Source of the DNA: a virus
UHGV virus genome: UHGV-0073881
Strand: one strand, 5' to 3'
Length of the DNA: 64,000 bases
The notes beneath the pieces were generated by a model. That model had not been told where the DNA came from and did not search any database. It worked only from the letters and a program-made list of their open reading frames with translations. Position 1 is the stretch's first letter. The number at the start of each line of letters is the position of its first letter. Made by a program: the position numbers and the translations under genes. Shown here one piece after another: positions 5,271 through 21,846 of this stretch.

Positions 5271-6623
5271 ATGTGGAATCCAATTGTTAATGTAGATATT
5301 ACATTGAACACAGCAGGGACTACGAGAGAAGGTTTTGGACTGCCATTATTCTTAGCTTCAACAGATAACTTTGAAGAAAGAATTCGTGGTTATACTTCAC
5401 TAACTGAAGTTGCCGAAGACTTTGATGAAAGTTCTGCTGCATACAAAGCTGCAAAACAGCTATGGAGTCAGACTCCAAAAGTAACTCAACTTTATATTGG
5501 TAGACGTTCTATGCAGTATACCGTTGCTGTTCCTGATGCCGTTGCTGAGAGCACAGAATACTCTCTTACAGTTGCTGTAGGTGGTGGTGTATCTCAGCCA
5601 TTCCAGTACACAGCTAAGGCCGATGATACAGCCCTGATTGTTCTGAATGAATTTAAAACTCAGATTGAAGCAAGCCCTGCTGTTAAAGATGATGTTCAGG
5701 TTAATGTAACAGGTGCTGGTGACTCAGCTACAATGATTATCTCCAAAGCAGGTGATAATGATTTCGTAAAAGTTACCACAACTGGTAAGACTCTTTCAAT
5801 CTCTTCTACGACTGCTGACAGTGCATCAACTGCTCTCTCTGCAATTGAAACGTACTCAACAGATTGGTACTTCATTGCAACAGAAGACAGAACTTCACAG
5901 TTTGTCTTGGCAATGGCATCTGAAATTCAGGCTCGTAAGAAGATTTTCTTCACAGCTAACTCTGATGTGAAAGCTCTACAGGGAACCGACCTAGCTTCTG
6001 CTACAGACGTACCAGCACAGCTTGCTAAATCCAAGTACACTCGTACAGTTTGCTTGTGGCATCACACTGCAAGATACGACTACCCAGAAATGGCTTACAT
6101 TGCTTACGGTGCTCCATATGACGCAGGTTCCATTGCTTGGGGTAACGCTCAGTTGACGGGTGTTGAAACATCTTATCAGCCAGCTAACAAGAGACCTCTG
6201 ACAAGCATTCAGAAATCTGCACTAGATGCACGTAGCTGTAACTTCATTGACCTTGATGGTGGTGTTCCGGTTGTGCGTAGAGGTATCACTTCAGGTGGGG
6301 AATGGATTGATATCGTTCGTGGTGTCGATTGGCTGACTTCTGACTTGAAAACTTCTCTGAGAGACTTGCTAATTAATCAGAAGGGTGGTAAGATTACTTA
6401 TGATGATACTGGTATTACTCGTATTCGTCAAGTCATTGAAACATCTCTTCAGAGAGCGGTTAACAGAAACTTTTTATCATCTTACACCGTTAATGTACCT
6501 AAAGCTTCTCAGGTTTCTTTAGCAGACAAGAAAGCACGTATCCTGAAAGATATTACCTTCCACGGTATTATCGCAGGTGCTATCTTGGATGTTGACCTGA
6601 AAGGTACAGTGGCTTACGAATAA
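5271..6623 (+). CDS. tail sheath protein
   Basis: 450-aa ORF directly followed by a 148-aa tube-sized ORF, a chaperone pair and the tape measure gene, the canonical contractile-tail order. Confidence 0.6.
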   Translation: MWNPIVNVDITLNTAGTTREGFGLPLFLASTDNFEERIRGYTSLTEVAEDFDESSAAYKAAKQLWSQTPKVTQLYIGRRSMQYTVAVPDAVAESTEYSLTVAVGGGVSQPFQYTAKADDTALIVLNEFKTQIEASPAVKDDVQVNVTGAGDSATMIISKAGDNDFVKVTTTGKTLSISSTTADSASTALSAIETYSTDWYFIATEDRTSQFVLAMASEIQARKKIFFTANSDVKALQGTDLASATDVPAQLAKSKYTRTVCLWHHTARYDYPEMAYIAYGAPYDAGSIAWGNAQLTGVETSYQPANKRPLTSIQKSALDARSCNFIDLDGGVPVVRRGITSGGEWIDIVRGVDWLTSDLKTSLRDLLINQKGGKITYDDTGITRIRQVIETSLQRAVNRNFLSSYTVNVPKASQVSLADKKARILKDITFHGIIAGAILDVDLKGTVAYE

Positions 6624-6638
6624 TAGGAGTACTTTGGA

Positions 6639-7085
6639 ATGGCTATGTATCAGCAATATTCCCCTAAAGACGTAGTTTGTAGCTGGAATGGTATTGCCAT
6701 CGAAGGCTTTGCTCCAGACTCTTTCCTACGCCTACAGAGAACATCACCACTTGTTACACCAGTTGTTGGTGCAGGTGGTCAGGTAGCTCTGACAAGAAAC
6801 GCAGATAAGACAGGCACTATTGAGATTGAGCTAATGCAGACCTCTCTATCTAACCAGATTCTTTCTGCGATTCAAGCTAAACAGGACGATATGGAACTTG
6901 AAGAAGATATCTCTTCTAACTTCGTAATCTATGACCCTTCGGGGTCTGTAATGGCAACTGGTATTAATGCTTGGTTGCAAGAACTTCCACAGGTTGAGTT
7001 AGGTCGTGACCAGAACTCTAAGACGTGGATTTTCGGATGCGAACGTTTAGACTATACTTCTACAGTACCAGCGTCAAGCGTTTAA
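6639..7085 (+). CDS. tail tube protein
   Basis: 148-aa ORF between sheath and chaperone genes; followed by a stem-loop terminator. Confidence 0.55.
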   Translation: MAMYQQYSPKDVVCSWNGIAIEGFAPDSFLRLQRTSPLVTPVVGAGGQVALTRNADKTGTIEIELMQTSLSNQILSAIQAKQDDMELEEDISSNFVIYDPSGSVMATGINAWLQELPQVELGRDQNSKTWIFGCERLDYTSTVPASSV

Positions 7086-7098
7086 TAAATCCTAATAA

Positions 7099-7128
7099 GG
7101 GGGAGACTGTAAAAGGTCTTCCCCTTTT
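7099..7128 (+). terminator. rho-independent terminator after tail tube gene
   Basis: GGGGAGAC / GTCTTCCCC stem followed by a T-run. Confidence 0.55.
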
Positions 7129-7163
7129 GTGTTTTTGTACACCAATAATTTTAAGGAATCACA

Positions 7164-7571
7164 ATGAAGACTCAAACCAAACACATTAATGGAAAGAAAG
7201 TAACTATTATTCTTTTAGGTGCAAGAGAAGGTATTAAAATGTCTATGAAGCTCGGTAAAGTAGTTGTACCGACATTTGCACAGATGCTTTCTAGTTTAAC
7301 TGGAAATAAAGAAGCTGAAGAAGCTCCGAAGGTTCCATTTAAAGAACTTGTAGAAGCTTGCTTTGACAGAATTGATGAGTTGGATATTGACTCAATGGCA
7401 GAATTACTATTTCAGGGGGCAACAGTTGATGACTTCCCACTGAAAGTTGACTCTTACTTCCAAGGAAACTACGGAGAATTTATTGACTTCTTAGCATTTG
7501 CTCTGGAGGCTAATTTCGGAAGTTTTTTCGAGGCAAGCATTTTCAAAAGCCTAACTTCTCAGGAAGCTTAA
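7164..7571 (+). CDS. tail assembly chaperone
   Basis: 135-aa acidic ORF immediately upstream of the tape measure gene; slippery heptamer T_TTT_TTC lies near its 3' end. Confidence 0.55.
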   Translation: MKTQTKHINGKKVTIILLGAREGIKMSMKLGKVVVPTFAQMLSSLTGNKEAEEAPKVPFKELVEACFDRIDELDIDSMAELLFQGATVDDFPLKVDSYFQGNYGEFIDFLAFALEANFGSFFEASIFKSLTSQEA

Positions 7572-7579
7572 GATATGCT

Positions 7580-7807
7580 ATGCAGACCCCACTGACTGAT
7601 GGGGCTGTAGAAGCAACTTATGAAGAAGCAGATGAGATGAAATTTGTGCTTGCTATTTACGGTATGGAAGGGTGCAAAGAAACACTTGACCAACTTTTCT
7701 CTATGTCCTTCACTGACCTACTATCATTACGTCAGTATCTGGAAATCCAGAGGTCATACAAAGAGGAAATTGCTTACAACGAACTTAGAAAGGCAGGTAA
7801 AATTTAA
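7580..7807 (+). CDS. tail assembly chaperone, -1 frame extension (probable frameshift product)
   Basis: the -1 frame opens at 7514 just upstream of slippery site 7523-7529 and runs to the tape measure start codon; an ATG at 7580 with AGGAAG upstream could also serve as an independent start. Confidence 0.4.
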   Translation: MQTPLTDGAVEATYEEADEMKFVLAIYGMEGCKETLDQLFSMSFTDLLSLRQYLEIQRSYKEEIAYNELRKAGKI

Positions 7808-10014
7808 TGGCACAATATACAGTTGATAGTTTTATTGTTGAGTTGGGCTTTAGTGAAAAGGTTGTGAAGGGTTTACAAAGAGTTGAAAAGATGGCTATGC
7901 AATCTGCACAACGAATTGAAAGAAACCTGAATAAAGCCTTTGCTGTGAAGCCAAATAAAAACTCTCAAGAAGCTTTAAACAGACTTGTTAAAAACGCTCA
8001 GACTGCTTCGGGCAGAATCAATAAAGCCCTGAACAACTCCCTTAACTTAGACTCCCAAGGTGCAAAGTCTCTGAAGAAATTAGAGACACAAGGTAAGAAG
8101 ACTGCCAAAGAAATTAATAAGGCTCTAAGACAGGCTATGAATGTTGATGGTAAAGTCAAGATTCGTGGTGTTGGTAGAGGCCGTGGTAATTCTAATCCTC
8201 CAATTGGTGGAGGTTCACCAAGAGTTAGACCTGATATTGCTCAGAGACAAATGGAAAGAATGTTTAATAACAATTTCTACTCTGGCCTTACTCGTCGTCT
8301 TGAAACTATTGGTGGACAGGGTAACCAAATGGCTGCTTCTTTCAGAGGCAACTTGCAAGGAATCTATAACAAGTATAAAGGGAGTGGTAAGGTTGGTGAA
8401 TATGAGATGGAAGTTAAAAAACTCATTGACACAACCAAAAGATGGGTAATTGCAGAAAATGCTAGACTTAAGGCAGTCAAAGAATCAGCATGGCTACAGG
8501 ATAGAGCAAACTCTTCACTAAGACAACTAGTAGGTGGTTTTGTTTCTGCATACGCTATGTTAGAATTGGCTCAGAAGACTATTGATGCAGGTGTTAAAAG
8601 ACAATCTGCACAGTTAGCTTCTACGGCAATCTTTGGAGCAGATACACAGCAAGCTAGAATGTTCGCTGCATCGTTCGCTCACCAGATTGGACAGAACTAC
8701 ACAGACACTATGAAGCAGTATTCAAACTTTGCTGCTGGTGCTCAACCAACACTTGGTTTCCAAGGTACTCAAGAGTTCTATAAGAATGCTGCTATGTTTG
8801 CCCGTATTAGAGGGGCATCTGACGAAGACCTGAAAGGTATCATGGTTGCTTTCCAACAGATGGCTTCTAAGGGTAAGATTCAGGCTGAAGAACTTCGTGG
8901 ACAGTTAGGTGACCGTTTAGCTGGTGCTGTACAACTGTTTGCTGACGCGATTGGTAAGACCCCACAGGAACTGGATAAACTGATGAAGGATGGTAAACTT
9001 CTTGCTAAAGACGTTCTTCCTCAAGTTTCTGAGAAGATGAGAGAGTTAGTAGAAGCAGCAGGTGGTATGAATGCCGTGTCTAAGCAGACAGCTACTTCTA
9101 TGGGTCAAGCAAAAGCTATGTGGGACAATACCCTCGTAGCACTGTTTAACAACTCTAGTGAAGGTATTTCACAGTTGTCTAACTCAATTTCAATGTTCTT
9201 ACAAGGTTCCCTTGGTACTGCTGAAGCTTTAGGTACTGGTATTGGATACCTGTTAAAAGGTGCTGGAAACTTACTTGATTTCATTACAGACATTATGTAT
9301 AGAATCTCTGGGCTGTACTACCTATCTATGGGTTATTACAACGAATTAGATGCTAGTCAACAGAAACTTGTAAAAGAAGCTTCTGAGTTCCTTGCAACAG
9401 TTATTGCTATTGGTGCTGCTGTAGCAACGGTCGCTAAAGTGGCGAAGCTTATCACTGGATTCTTTGATACAGCAATTGTACGAAAGATTCTTCAGAGATT
9501 TGGCATTGAGGTGGCTGAGAAAGTTGCACCAAGAGCAGCTCCATTTTTAATGCCACCTCAAGTAAAGGTGGCCTTGGCAACAATTGCACTATCTAGGTCT
9601 TCTGACCCTAATGCTGGAAAGAGATACAATGAGGTCACTCTTCCAAAACCTTTTGAAGATGCTGTATCAAGTGTTACCAACGCTAAACGCCCAATGTTCT
9701 TTGACCAGAATGGACAGTTGCAGTTTGCACAATATACGACTGACACTGATGGTAACATCCAAAGAGTTGATAATGGTATGTCAAATTGGGATATCATTAT
9801 GAACAACTTGTCAGAGTCTTTAAACAACTTTGCAAACAAGTTCAATCAGACCCCTATGATGATGACACCTTCTGGATTACCTATGCAAACTAAGCAGACT
9901 CTTAATGTCACGTTTAACCTTGATGGTAACCAGATTGCTACTAAGATGGTCGATATTACTAACAAGAACCAAGAAGATATTTTGTTAAACTCAGCTTACC
10001 CAGAGGATAATTAA
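7807..10014 (+). CDS. tail tape measure protein
   Basis: 735-aa ORF after the chaperone pair; long helical, A/Q/K-rich sequence with a glycine-rich patch. Confidence 0.75.
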
Positions 10015-21031: not shown

Positions 21032-21577
21032 TCAGAAACGTCCTCTTACTTGTGGAACATAAATGTTGAATACAACGCTGTCATCCTTCGATGGTTTTGA
21101 CTGTATTCTAGCAAAAGTTGACTCATCATACAAGTACTCAAAGAAACCCTTGTAAGGAAGCTTCACAGTTGCTTCTTCAGTCACTTCACGAATATATGTT
21201 TGACAAACTGCATCTGCATATGGTAAAGCTTGGATTAGAATGCTTGCCCCGCCAATTATACAAACATCTTGCTCGATACTATTATCAAGATGTTTTAAGA
21301 ATGCCCCAAAAGCGTCTGAATGAACCTTAGCAAACATTACATCTTCTCTACCAAAATCTATACCTTCATACGGTAATGAGTTTGTCAGAACAATATTATC
21401 ACGGTCTGGTAAAGGTTTGCTTCCAAGACTCTTGAAAGTGTCATTACCCATAACTACCAATTGACCTGTGGTAATCTTTTTGAACTCTTGCATGTCTTGC
21501 TTATTACGAGGCCAAGGCATACCAGAAGGACAACCAAACTCCCCGTTAAGACCATTTGCAAAAACTAATTTAATCAT
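21032..21577 (-). CDS. folA: dihydrofolate reductase
   Basis: 181 aa; DHFR-like N-terminus (MPWPRNKQD, VVMGNDTFKSLG, PLPDRDNIVLT); adjacent to the thymidylate synthase gene. Confidence 0.85.
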   Translation of the reverse strand: MIKLVFANGLNGEFGCPSGMPWPRNKQDMQEFKKITTGQLVVMGNDTFKSLGSKPLPDRDNIVLTNSLPYEGIDFGREDVMFAKVHSDAFGAFLKHLDNSIEQDVCIIGGASILIQALPYADAVCQTYIREVTEEATVKLPYKGFFEYLYDESTFARIQSKPSKDDSVVFNIYVPQVRGRF

Positions 21578-21846
21578 TGTGTGAACCCCTTTACAATAAA
21601 CCAGTTAGCAATATTTTTAACAAATTTAACTGGGTGAAATACTAAATGTGGTTGTGGTTCATAACCACCATAAGCCCAGAAAGAGATAATGTTATTACAA
21701 TCCGTGCAACGTGTATACTCTTCGGCTACATTACCTGCGACAATCTCTGTAATCTCACCTTGGAAATTTGTACCTCCACAATGTGGGCATTTTAAAGGTT
21801 CGCCGTCTTGACTGTAACAGTGTTCAAACTTCTCAAACAGTTTCAT
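21574..21846 (-). CDS. hypothetical zinc-ribbon protein
   Basis: 90 aa with CPHCGG ... CTDCN cysteine pairs. Confidence 0.45.
   Translation of the reverse strand: MKLFEKFEHCYSQDGEPLKCPHCGGTNFQGEITEIVAGNVAEEYTRCTDCNNIISFWAYGGYEPQPHLVFHPVKFVKNIANWFIVKGFTQ

What the first reader, a model, noticed from the sequence alone, without database searches (positions are those of the whole stretch)
7514..7807. Probable programmed -1 ribosomal frameshift in the tail assembly chaperone gene
Slippery heptamer T_TTT_TTC (7523-7529) lies 40 nt before the stop of the chaperone ORF. The -1 frame opens at 7514, only 9 nt upstream of the slip site, and stays open for 98 codons to the tape measure start codon. This matches the conserved chaperone frameshift of long-tailed phages. 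An ATG at 7580 with AGGAAG upstream could also start an independent protein.
Basis: partly seen in the sequence, partly recalled or inferred. Interest (0 to 1): 0.5.

Follow-up and report, generated by a model that had tools for sequence, protein, structure and literature searches.

The report
Known tail-chaperone ribosomal frameshift site
This is the standard programmed -1 ribosomal frameshift that lets a Felix O1-like phage make a short and a long tail assembly chaperone from one gene; it is real and well supported, but already annotated in close relatives, so it is ordinary.

Summary
The window is a Felix O1-like myovirus, 96.5-99% identical to Escherichia phage pEC-M719-6WT.1 and about 86% to Mooglevirus. 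ORF 7164..7571 is a tail assembly chaperone (Pfam PF21822) between the tail tube gene and the tape measure gene. T_TTT_TTC (7523-7529) is in phase. The -1 frame is open from 7514 to TAA 7805-7807, which overlaps the tape measure ATG.

Comparative evidence for a -1 ribosomal frameshift is strong:
- The heptamer is kept in all 37 close and mid-range loci.
- An in-phase T_TTT_TTY sits at the invariant Ser/Gly-Phe-Phe motif in relatives down to 26% identity.
- Two lineages that lost the T run carry an in-phase G_GGA_AAA a few codons downstream.
- Synonymous variation collapses at the site.
- The -1 relation survives many indels.
- Most lineages have no start codon for an independent downstream protein.

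An SD-like GGAGG lies 13 nt upstream and recurs in most lineages, so it is a likely 5' stimulator. No downstream hairpin is supported.

The same site is annotated as ribosomal slippage in phages Moogle and Michonne and was discussed in a 2025 paper. No experimental proof was found. Verdict: supported, already known, low interest.

The parts
7154..7157 (+). Ribosome-binding site (AGGA) of the chaperone gene, 6 nt before ATG 7164
   Evidence: Sequence read. An RBS is annotated at the equivalent place in Moogle and Michonne.
7164..7571 (+). TAC-N: short tail assembly chaperone ORF (135 aa, about 15.0 kDa), the product of standard decoding
7505..7509 (+). Shine-Dalgarno-like GGAGG with a 13-nt spacer to the heptamer; candidate 5' frameshift stimulator (inferred)
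   Evidence: Anti-SD duplex -9.3 kcal/mol; only 0.37% of window positions do as well. GGAGG, AGGAG or GGGAG recurs at -18..-12 in 16 of 22 T-run lineage representatives (GAGG only in 3 more), even where the amino acids differ. A recoding test gives Fisher p 0.0066. The spacer lies within the 9-14 nt reported for -1 stimulators (PMC5009743).
7523..7529 (+). Slippery heptamer T_TTT_TTC in X_XXY_YYZ phase; both tRNA-Phe re-pair on UUU after the -1 slip
   Evidence: Conserved in all 37 close and mid-range loci, and as T_TTT_TTY in distant ones. The product of P(heptamer given the amino acids) over 14 lineages is about 1e-11. U_UU.U_UU.C is shift-prone in E. coli (PMC4066793). The Michonne slippage note maps inside the orthologous heptamer.
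7529..7807 (+). -1 frame segment decoded after the shift (92 codons plus the TAA stop). With codons 1-122 of TAC-N it gives TAC-NC (214 aa, about 24.2 kDa).
   Evidence: Translation. phrog_4963 'tail assembly chaperone', E 3.8e-51. The -1 frame is open in every relative to the tape measure start or within about 35 nt of it.
7523..7553 (+). Dual-coding block TTTTTTCGARGCAAGCATTTTCAAAARCCT, nearly invariant at the nucleotide level even between genera with 44% amino-acid identity
   Evidence: Synonymous-site entropy is 0.157 in codons 120-133 against 0.639 upstream (permutation p 7e-5), and the lowest window in the gene is codons 118-129.
7561..7582 (+). AGGAAG (7561-7566) and ATG 7580: a possible independent or re-initiation start for a 75-aa C-domain-only protein (rival or additional route)
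   Evidence: The spacer is 13 nt. The ATG is not conserved in Felix O1-type loci, and no start codon exists in most other lineages.
7807..10014 (+). Tape measure protein gene; its ATG overlaps the stop of the -1 ORF (TAATG)
   Evidence: phrog_4036, E 0; Pfam TMP_3 PF20155, E 3e-16.

Best explanation

Most ribosomes read 7164..7571 in frame and make the 135-aa chaperone TAC-N. A minority shift when the two tRNA-Phe occupy UUU (P site, 7524-26) and UUC (A site, 7527-29). Both tRNAs slip back one base onto UUU UUU (7523-28). Decoding resumes at CGA 7529-31 in the -1 frame and continues to TAA 7805-07.

The shifted product is a 214-aa fusion, TAC-NC: residues 1-122 of TAC-N plus 92 new residues. 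The GGAGG 13 nt upstream probably pairs with the 3' end of 16S rRNA in the elongating ribosome and raises the shift frequency, as in dnaX and IS elements. No downstream RNA structure is needed.

By analogy with lambda gpG/gpGT, the shared N part would bind the tape measure protein. The C domain would recruit the tail tube protein. The frameshift would fix the ratio of the two forms, and neither would end up in the virion.

Shown here: the anatomy, the family membership and the conservation. Inferred: the actual shifting, its efficiency, the role of the SD-like element, and the protein functions.
For: Anatomy and phase.

TAC identity and gene order (sheath, tube, TAC, TMP).

The heptamer is conserved in all 33 loci. 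It is also present in Felix O1, Arno18, PT11-V22 and H101 and in metagenomic relatives at 26-51% identity.

The downstream ORF is always in the -1 frame and extends 37-91 codons past the 0-frame stop. The +1 frame never exceeds 39 codons. The distance from the heptamer to the end of the -1 ORF stays congruent to 2 mod 3 through indels.

Slip-site turnover: L078 and L079 lack the T run but have an in-phase G_GGA_AAA. L068, L069 and L076 carry both.

Codon choice: P(heptamer given the amino acids) multiplied over 14 lineage representatives is about 1e-11.

Synonymous-site suppression begins at the site, p 7e-5.

The -1 peptide just after the site (FFRxKHFQKP, FFYGKRY...) is conserved. Most lineages have no start codon before the C-domain.

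SD-like element. A 9-14 nt spacing for -1 stimulators is given in PMC5009743.

U_UU.U_UU.C is shift-prone in E. coli (PMC4066793).

The same site is annotated as slippage in Moogle and Michonne (PMC4319497, PMC4591319). A conserved GTTTTT was reported across 231 Andersonviridae (PMC12846349).
Against: No protein-level or reporter evidence for this phage group was found in the searchable literature.

No conserved or significant downstream hairpin was found (z 0.2-0.4), and there is no Rfam match.

The SD-like element is absent in the Kolesnikvirus-like loci L031 and L032 and weak in PT11-V22. Its support is moderate (Fisher p 0.0066, with lineages treated as independent).

This phage does have an ATG at 7580, 8 nt after the 0-frame stop, so a C-domain-only product cannot be excluded.

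The large protein database returned only unfused TAC-N entries among the 103 proteins it returned. This reflects gene callers, not biology.
Confidence: 0.9

Rival explanations
1. There are two separate genes. The downstream ORF is translated on its own from ATG 7580, using AGGAAG or termination-reinitiation after the stop at 7569-71. It gives a free 75-aa protein, and the heptamer is a by-product of coding Ser-Phe-Phe. This could also be an additional route alongside frameshifting.
For: ATG 7580 lies 8 nt after the 0-frame stop, with AGGAAG upstream. Most database records annotate two separate ORFs, and PHROG 4963 models a 79-aa protein. Felix O1 has an ATG 2 nt after its stop.
Against: The position of the start codon is not conserved. 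Window/Moogle-type and Felix-type loci use different ATGs.

L031, L032, L066, L070, L034, L069, L078, L079, L080, L081, L089 and L090 have no ATG/GTG/TTG between the 0-frame stop and the conserved C-domain. In L080-L090 the stop lies deep inside that domain.

The AGGAAG-ATG spacer is 13 nt.

Independent genes would not keep a -1 relation through every indel. They would not freeze synonymous sites from the heptamer onward. They would not hold the heptamer against codon bias in GC-rich phages.
Confidence: 0.06
2. The frame change happens by transcriptional slippage. RNA polymerase adds one extra U in the T6 run, and standard translation of that minority mRNA yields the fusion.
For: The site is a homopolymer run: T6 here and T7 in several distant relatives. 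One inserted U would give the same downstream frame. [quoted passage not shown]
Against: Bacterial slippage is described on runs of 9 A or T (PMC5009743); this run has 6. L078 has only T5 and L079 only T3, yet both keep an in-phase G_GGA_AAA, a ribosomal motif with only A4. An SD-like element at the spacing typical of ribosomal -1 stimulators accompanies the site. U_UU.U_UU.C is a measured ribosomal shifter in E. coli (PMC4066793).
Confidence: 0.03
3. The shift is ribosomal but happens elsewhere in the overlap. One candidate is single-tRNA slippage on the U_UUC tetramer at 7541-7544 (codons ATT TTC) inside the conserved block.
For: U_UU.C is the second most shift-prone tetramer in E. coli (PMC4066793). 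It lies within the nearly invariant 30-nt block and inside the window allowed by the -1 frame (7514-7568).
Against: Tetramers reach about 10-fold lower levels than the best heptamers (PMC4066793). This tetramer is not conserved in Arno18, PT11-V22, H101 or the metagenomic relatives, whereas the heptamer is. The SD-like element would be 31 nt away, outside the 9-14 nt range.
Confidence: 0.01

Closest known systems
Annotated -1 frameshift in the tape measure chaperone of Mooglevirus phages (Citrobacter phages Moogle KM236239, Michonne NC_028247, Mordin, Mijalis), and the conserved GTTTTT motif reported for 231 Andersonviridae (PMC12846349)
   Same: The gene is orthologous (about 80% amino-acid identity). 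The heptamer TTTTTTC, its phase, the -1 ORF ending on the TMP ATG and the upstream GGAGG are all the same.
   Different: Nothing essential differs. The window's nearest relative, pEC-M719-6WT.1, simply leaves the frameshift unannotated. In the window the -1 frame opens only 9 nt before the heptamer, against 36 nt in Moogle.
Phage lambda gpG/gpGT and the conserved tail assembly chaperone frameshift of long-tailed phages (Levin et al. 1993; Xu, Hendrix & Duda 2004, as cited in PMC5009743)
   Same: Two overlapping ORFs lie between the major tail gene and the tape measure gene. [quoted passage not shown] A short major product and a long minor product share an N-terminal part.
   Different: The slippery sequence differs: T_TTT_TTC here, G_GGA_AAG in lambda (from my own knowledge). 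There is no detectable sequence similarity to gpG; the Pfam family is PF21822. The host phage is a contractile-tail myovirus. A conserved SD-like element lies upstream. As far as I recall, lambda G/GT needs no such stimulator, and I did not check this here.
E. coli dnaX and IS3/IS911-type -1 frameshift signals with a 5' Shine-Dalgarno-like stimulator (PMC5009743, PMC4066793)
   Same: A heptamer is combined with an SD-like sequence 9-14 nt upstream (13 nt here). U_UU.U_UU.C is among the heptamers used by IS elements.
   Different: There is no supported downstream stem-loop or pseudoknot. The biological role differs: a structural chaperone ratio rather than a polymerase subunit or transposase. 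The stimulation has not been tested.

Membership tests
Tail assembly chaperone -1 programmed frameshift (lambda G/GT type) | Two ORFs located between the tail tube (major tail) gene and the tape measure gene | tested here: met
   Gene order: sheath 5271..6623, tube-like 6639..7085, ORF 7164..7571, ORF 7580..7807, TMP 7807..10014.
Tail assembly chaperone -1 programmed frameshift (lambda G/GT type) | The upstream ORF belongs to a tail assembly chaperone family | tested here: met
   [not shown]
Tail assembly chaperone -1 programmed frameshift (lambda G/GT type) | The downstream ORF is in the -1 frame and overlaps the 3' end of the upstream ORF | tested here: met
   The -1 frame is open over 7514..7807 and the 0-frame stop is at 7569. 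The same holds in every related locus analysed (61 loci: 33, 4, 24).
Tail assembly chaperone -1 programmed frameshift (lambda G/GT type) | An in-phase slippery heptamer X_XXY_YYZ lies inside the overlap and is conserved among relatives | tested here: met
   T_TTT_TTC at 7523-7529. It is conserved, or replaced by G_GGA_AAA, across relatives down to 26% identity. The codon-choice probability is about 1e-11.
Tail assembly chaperone -1 programmed frameshift (lambda G/GT type) | The downstream ORF lacks a conserved translation start of its own | tested here: met
   No ATG/GTG/TTG precedes the C-domain in most lineages. This window and close relatives do have a non-conserved ATG.
Tail assembly chaperone -1 programmed frameshift (lambda G/GT type) | A fusion protein is made at a low fixed ratio and is required for tail assembly | not testable with these tools
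   This needs mass spectrometry, reporter assays or genetics. No such data for Felix O1-like phages were found.
SD-stimulated bacterial -1 frameshift signals (dnaX / IS3 type) | A Shine-Dalgarno-like sequence 9-14 nt 5' of the shift site | tested here: met
   GGAGG at 7505-7509 with a 13-nt spacer and a -9.3 kcal/mol duplex; 0.37% of positions do as well. GGAGG, AGGAG or GGGAG recurs in 16 of 22 lineage representatives (GAGG only in 3 more). Recoding test p 0.0066. Spacing rule from PMC5009743.
SD-stimulated bacterial -1 frameshift signals (dnaX / IS3 type) | A downstream stem-loop or pseudoknot 5-9 nt 3' of the shift site | tested here: not met
   Folds of 7530-7580 and 7530-7600 are no better than shuffles (z 0.37 and 0.18), and the folds differ between relatives. 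There is no Rfam match.
Programmed transcriptional slippage | A long homopolymer run (about 9 A or T in bacteria) at the site | tested here: not met
   The run is T6 here, T7 at most in relatives, and T5 or T3 in L078 and L079, which keep a ribosomal heptamer instead. Run length requirement from PMC5009743.

The most novel reading that the evidence does not exclude
The SD-like GGAGG (AGGAG or GGGAG in other lineages) 11-13 nt upstream of the heptamer may be a conserved, functional 5' stimulator of tail-chaperone frameshifting. It would span the whole PF21822 chaperone clade: Felix O1-like phages, marine Alteromonas and Pseudoalteromonas phages, and GC-rich metagenomic phages. It is maintained at the RNA level even where the encoded amino acids change (LEAN versus LKEN or LREN). 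It evolves alongside a slip site that can move from T_TTT_TTY to G_GGA_AAA. I found no mention of this element in the papers I could read on these phages.
Probability: 0.5. Interest if true: 0.3.

Novelty: already known. Interest (0 to 1): 0.15.

Why it matters
It matters mainly for annotation. The nearest relative, pEC-M719-6WT.1, and several other Felix O1-like records seen here list these as two separate ORFs, often named hypothetical protein. They should instead carry one joined CDS giving a 214-aa long chaperone.

The frameshift sets the ratio of short to long chaperone that tail assembly is thought to depend on. Synthetic recoding or codon optimisation of therapeutic Felix O1-like phages must therefore preserve three things: AGT TTT TTC, the overlapping -1 frame and probably the upstream GGAGG.

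Two minor additions go beyond the existing annotations. There is a statistically supported upstream SD-like element. There is also slip-site replacement by G_GGA_AAA in two lineages, which favours a ribosomal over a transcriptional mechanism.

Tried and rejected
- Downstream stimulatory structure. Folds of 51-111 nt after the heptamer in the window, Felix O1-type and Kolesnikvirus-type loci showed nothing significant within 60 nt. The only strong hairpin (about 7581-7610, part of a fold with z -2.5) starts more than 50 nt downstream and is not kept in Felix O1-type sequence.
- A hairpin containing the slip site itself (7515-7532) appears in one fold, but the fold is not significant and the ribosome would melt it.
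- Rfam scan of 7000-8000 at E up to 1: no match.
- PDB sequence search with the fusion protein: no hit.
- Search of the large protein database with the 214-aa fusion, hoping for annotated fused entries: all 103 proteins returned were unfused TAC-N.
- Literature search for experimental proof in Felix O1-like phages: only genome announcements and one comparative paper. The PhageMaP Bas63 paper says nothing on the chaperones.
- The Vladimirov et al. 2022 paper on T4-like chaperones could not be read.
- RNA-level explanation for the invariant 30-nt block. I rejected it in favour of dual coding. In Arno18 the nucleotides diverge while both reading frames keep similar peptides.
- The other long-extension heptamer in the window (AAAGGGG at 21592, minus strand) is only an ATGA gene overlap.
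- I did not model the C-domain or the fusion protein, because it would not change the verdict.

Full report
**Observation**

Reading 6900-8000 and listing ORFs confirms every coordinate of the finding.
- ORF 7164..7571 encodes 135 aa. Its codons near the site are AGT (7521-23), TTT (7524-26) and TTC (7527-29), so TTTTTTC at 7523-7529 is in X_XXY_YYZ phase.
- The 0-frame stop is TAA 7569-71.
- The -1 frame has TAA at 7511-13, opens at 7514, and runs 97 sense codons to TAA 7805-07. The last A of that stop is the A of the tape measure ATG (TMP 7807..10014).
- ATG 7580 in the -1 frame and AGGAAG 7561-66 are present, 13 nt apart.

The arrangement is unlikely by chance. A crude set of 90 genes in the window holds 82 in-phase heptamers in 20,005 codon positions (0.41%). 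About 0.07 would be expected in the 18-codon overlap. Only this heptamer combines with a long -1 extension past its own stop (94 codons). The other case, AAAGGGG at 21592 on the minus strand, is merely an ATGA overlap with the next gene.

**What the genes are**

- The upstream genes match tail sheath (phrog_205) and a tube-like virion protein (phrog_280).
- ORF 7164..7571 matches Pfam PF21822 Phage_TAC_15 (E 4.3e-22, 79.4 bits against a cutoff of 22) and phrog_1613 'tail assembly chaperone'.
- The -1 ORF matches phrog_4963, also 'tail assembly chaperone'.
- 7807..10014 is the tape measure protein.

The window is a Felix O1-like myovirus. It is 96.5% identical over 6600-8400, and 99.1% over the chaperone region, to Escherichia phage pEC-M719-6WT.1. 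It is about 86% identical to Mooglevirus phages.

**Already annotated**

- Citrobacter phage Moogle carries a two-piece joined CDS over the orthologous region.
This maps to position 1016 of locus L091, inside the orthologous TTTTTTC at 1013-1019.
- The genome announcements state a translational -1 frameshift (PMC4319497, PMC4591319).
- Several other records, including the window's nearest relative and Felix O1 itself, annotate two separate ORFs.
- I found no protein-level or reporter evidence for this phage group.

**Comparative test: heptamer and frame**

- All 33 loci of the first set keep TTTTTTC in phase. This includes Kolesnikvirus-like loci at 44-46% amino-acid identity.
- Felix O1 and Pectobacterium phage Arno18 also keep TTTTTTC. 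Alteromonas phage PT11-V22 (33% identity) and Pseudoalteromonas phage H101 (30%) have T_TTT_TTT.
- A profile-based scan added 24 more distant loci (26-51% identity, some with 52-63% G+C). In every one the -1 frame runs 37-91 codons past the 0-frame stop, while the +1 frame never exceeds 39.
- The distance from the heptamer to the end of the -1 ORF varies (284, 287, 290 and 305 nt) but is always 2 mod 3. Indels have therefore preserved the frame relation.
- The site sits on the invariant Phe-Phe of an NF(G/S)(S/G)FF motif.

**Comparative test: codon choice and slip-site turnover**

Given those amino acids and each lineage's own codon usage, the chance of a heptamer is 0.04-0.49 per lineage. The product over 14 lineage representatives is about 1e-11. 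This treats lineages as independent, which overstates the case somewhat.

Two lineages, L078 and L079, have lost the T run. Both carry an in-phase G_GGA_AAA 9-12 nt downstream, and L068, L069 and L076 carry both motifs. This replacement of one ribosomal slip motif by another is hard to explain except by selection for ribosomal frameshifting.

**Overlap signature**

I compared 34 unique chaperone sequences. At conserved-residue columns, synonymous-site entropy is 0.157 in codons 120-133 and 0.639 upstream (permutation p 7e-5). The least variable window in the whole gene is codons 118-129, centred on the heptamer.

The 30 nt TTTTTTCGARGCAAGCATTTTCAAAARCCT are almost invariant between genera that share only 44% amino-acid identity. 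In Arno18 the nucleotides differ, yet both frames keep similar peptides. I therefore attribute the block to dual coding rather than to an RNA element.

The -1 peptide directly after the site is conserved far out: FFRGKHFQKP here, and FFYGKRF or FFYGKRY in distant relatives.

**Independent start**

- The ATG at 7580 is shared with Moogle- and Susp-type loci.
- It is CTA in Felix O1-type loci, which have a different ATG five codons earlier.
- Kolesnikvirus-like loci, L066/L070, PT11-V22, L069, L078, L079, L080, L081, L089 and L090 have no ATG, GTG or TTG in the -1 frame between the 0-frame stop and the conserved C-domain.
- In the GC-rich group the 0-frame stop lies deep inside that domain.

Independent initiation may add a free C-domain in this particular phage. 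It cannot be the conserved way of making the domain.

**Stimulators**

No downstream hairpin is supported. Folds of 7530-7580 and 7530-7600 are no better than shuffles (z 0.37 and 0.18). The folds of relatives differ, and Rfam finds nothing.

Upstream, GGAGG lies at 7505-7509 with a 13-nt spacer.
- Internal SD-like stimulators of -1 shifts act at 9-14 nt. They are a major feature of dnaX and of about 56% of IS elements (PMC5009743).
- GGAGG is depleted in the window: 15 occurrences on the + strand against 37.8 expected from composition. Only 0.37% of positions have as strong an anti-SD match at -22..-6.
- GGAGG at -18..-14, or AGGAG/GGGAG at -16..-12, occurs in 16 of 22 T-run lineage representatives. 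Three more (L081, L088, L089) have GAGG only.
- The motif persists where the amino acids differ: Leu-Glu-Ala-Asn versus Leu-Lys/Arg-Glu-Asn, in some lineages using the AGG arginine codon.
- It is absent in L031 and L032 and weak in PT11-V22.
- I recoded the upstream codons synonymously with each locus's codon usage. This gave per-lineage probabilities of 0.03-0.77 and a combined Fisher p of 0.0066 over 14 lineages.

I regard the SD-like element as a probable stimulator, at about 0.5-0.6. It is not mentioned in PMC12846349.

**The heptamer itself**

In E. coli, U_UU.U_UU.C gives more than 0.10% shifting without any stimulator. It belongs to the efficient H_HH.U_UU.Y class and is used by IS elements (PMC4066793). 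From general knowledge, the single tRNA-Phe (anticodon GAA) reads both UUU and UUC, so both tRNAs re-pair well after the slip.

**Transcriptional slippage**

Bacterial slippage is described on runs of 9 A or T (PMC5009743). Here the run is T6. L078 has T5 and L079 has T3, while both keep a ribosomal heptamer. I rate this rival at about 3%.

**Mechanism and products**

Standard decoding gives TAC-N (135 aa, 15.0 kDa, pI 4.8). A -1 shift at the heptamer gives TAC-NC: residues 1-122 ending in GSFF, then RGKHFQKPNFSGSLRYAMQTPLTD...KAGKI, 214 aa in all, 24.2 kDa.

The following is inferred from lambda gpG/gpGT as summarised in PMC5009743, not shown here.
- The shared N part binds the tape measure protein.
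- The C domain recruits the tube protein.
- The frameshift fixes a low ratio of long to short form (30:1 in lambda).
- Neither protein stays in the virion.

**Verdict**

The feature is already known from annotations of close relatives and from a recent comparative paper. Interest is low.

The modest additions are the statistical case for the site, the slip-site turnover, and the conserved upstream SD-like element.

Noticed in passing
window 7097-7136 (+): A strong intrinsic-terminator-like hairpin (12 pairs, 6 G-C) followed by a T tract lies between the tail-tube-like gene (6639..7085) and the chaperone gene (7164). The Michonne RefSeq record annotates a terminator at the same place. It would lower chaperone and tape measure transcription relative to sheath and tube.
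   Followed up: partly
window 21574-21846 (-), heptamer at 21592: An in-phase AAAGGGG has a 186-codon -1 extension. This is only the ATGA overlap with the next gene, 21032..21577 (-), which has its own ATG. It is not a frameshift candidate.
   Followed up: yes
L078 397-403; L079 1563-1569; L068 1533-1548; L069 and L076 1548-1563: Slip-site turnover in distant relatives. Two lineages replaced the T run with an in-phase G_GGA_AAA a few codons downstream. L079 also lost the upstream SD-like motif, while L078 kept it. Three lineages carry both heptamers in tandem.
   Followed up: partly
window 7541-7544 (+): A second shift-prone motif, the tetramer U_UUC (codons ATT TTC), lies inside the nearly invariant 30-nt block after the heptamer. 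It is not conserved in Arno18, PT11-V22 or H101.
   Followed up: partly
window, whole + strand: GGAGG occurs 15 times against 37.8 expected from base composition. This fits general avoidance of internal SD-like sequences and makes the copy at 7505-7509 stand out.
   Followed up: partly
window 7805-7809 (+): The stop of the -1 ORF and the tape measure start overlap as TAATG. In relatives the -1 ORF also ends at the tape measure start or within about 35 nt of it. Ribosomes finishing the long chaperone could therefore couple directly into tape measure translation.
   Followed up: no
window 1-64000: ARAGORN found no tRNA or tmRNA genes anywhere in the 64-kb window.
   Followed up: yes
[not shown]
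   Followed up: no
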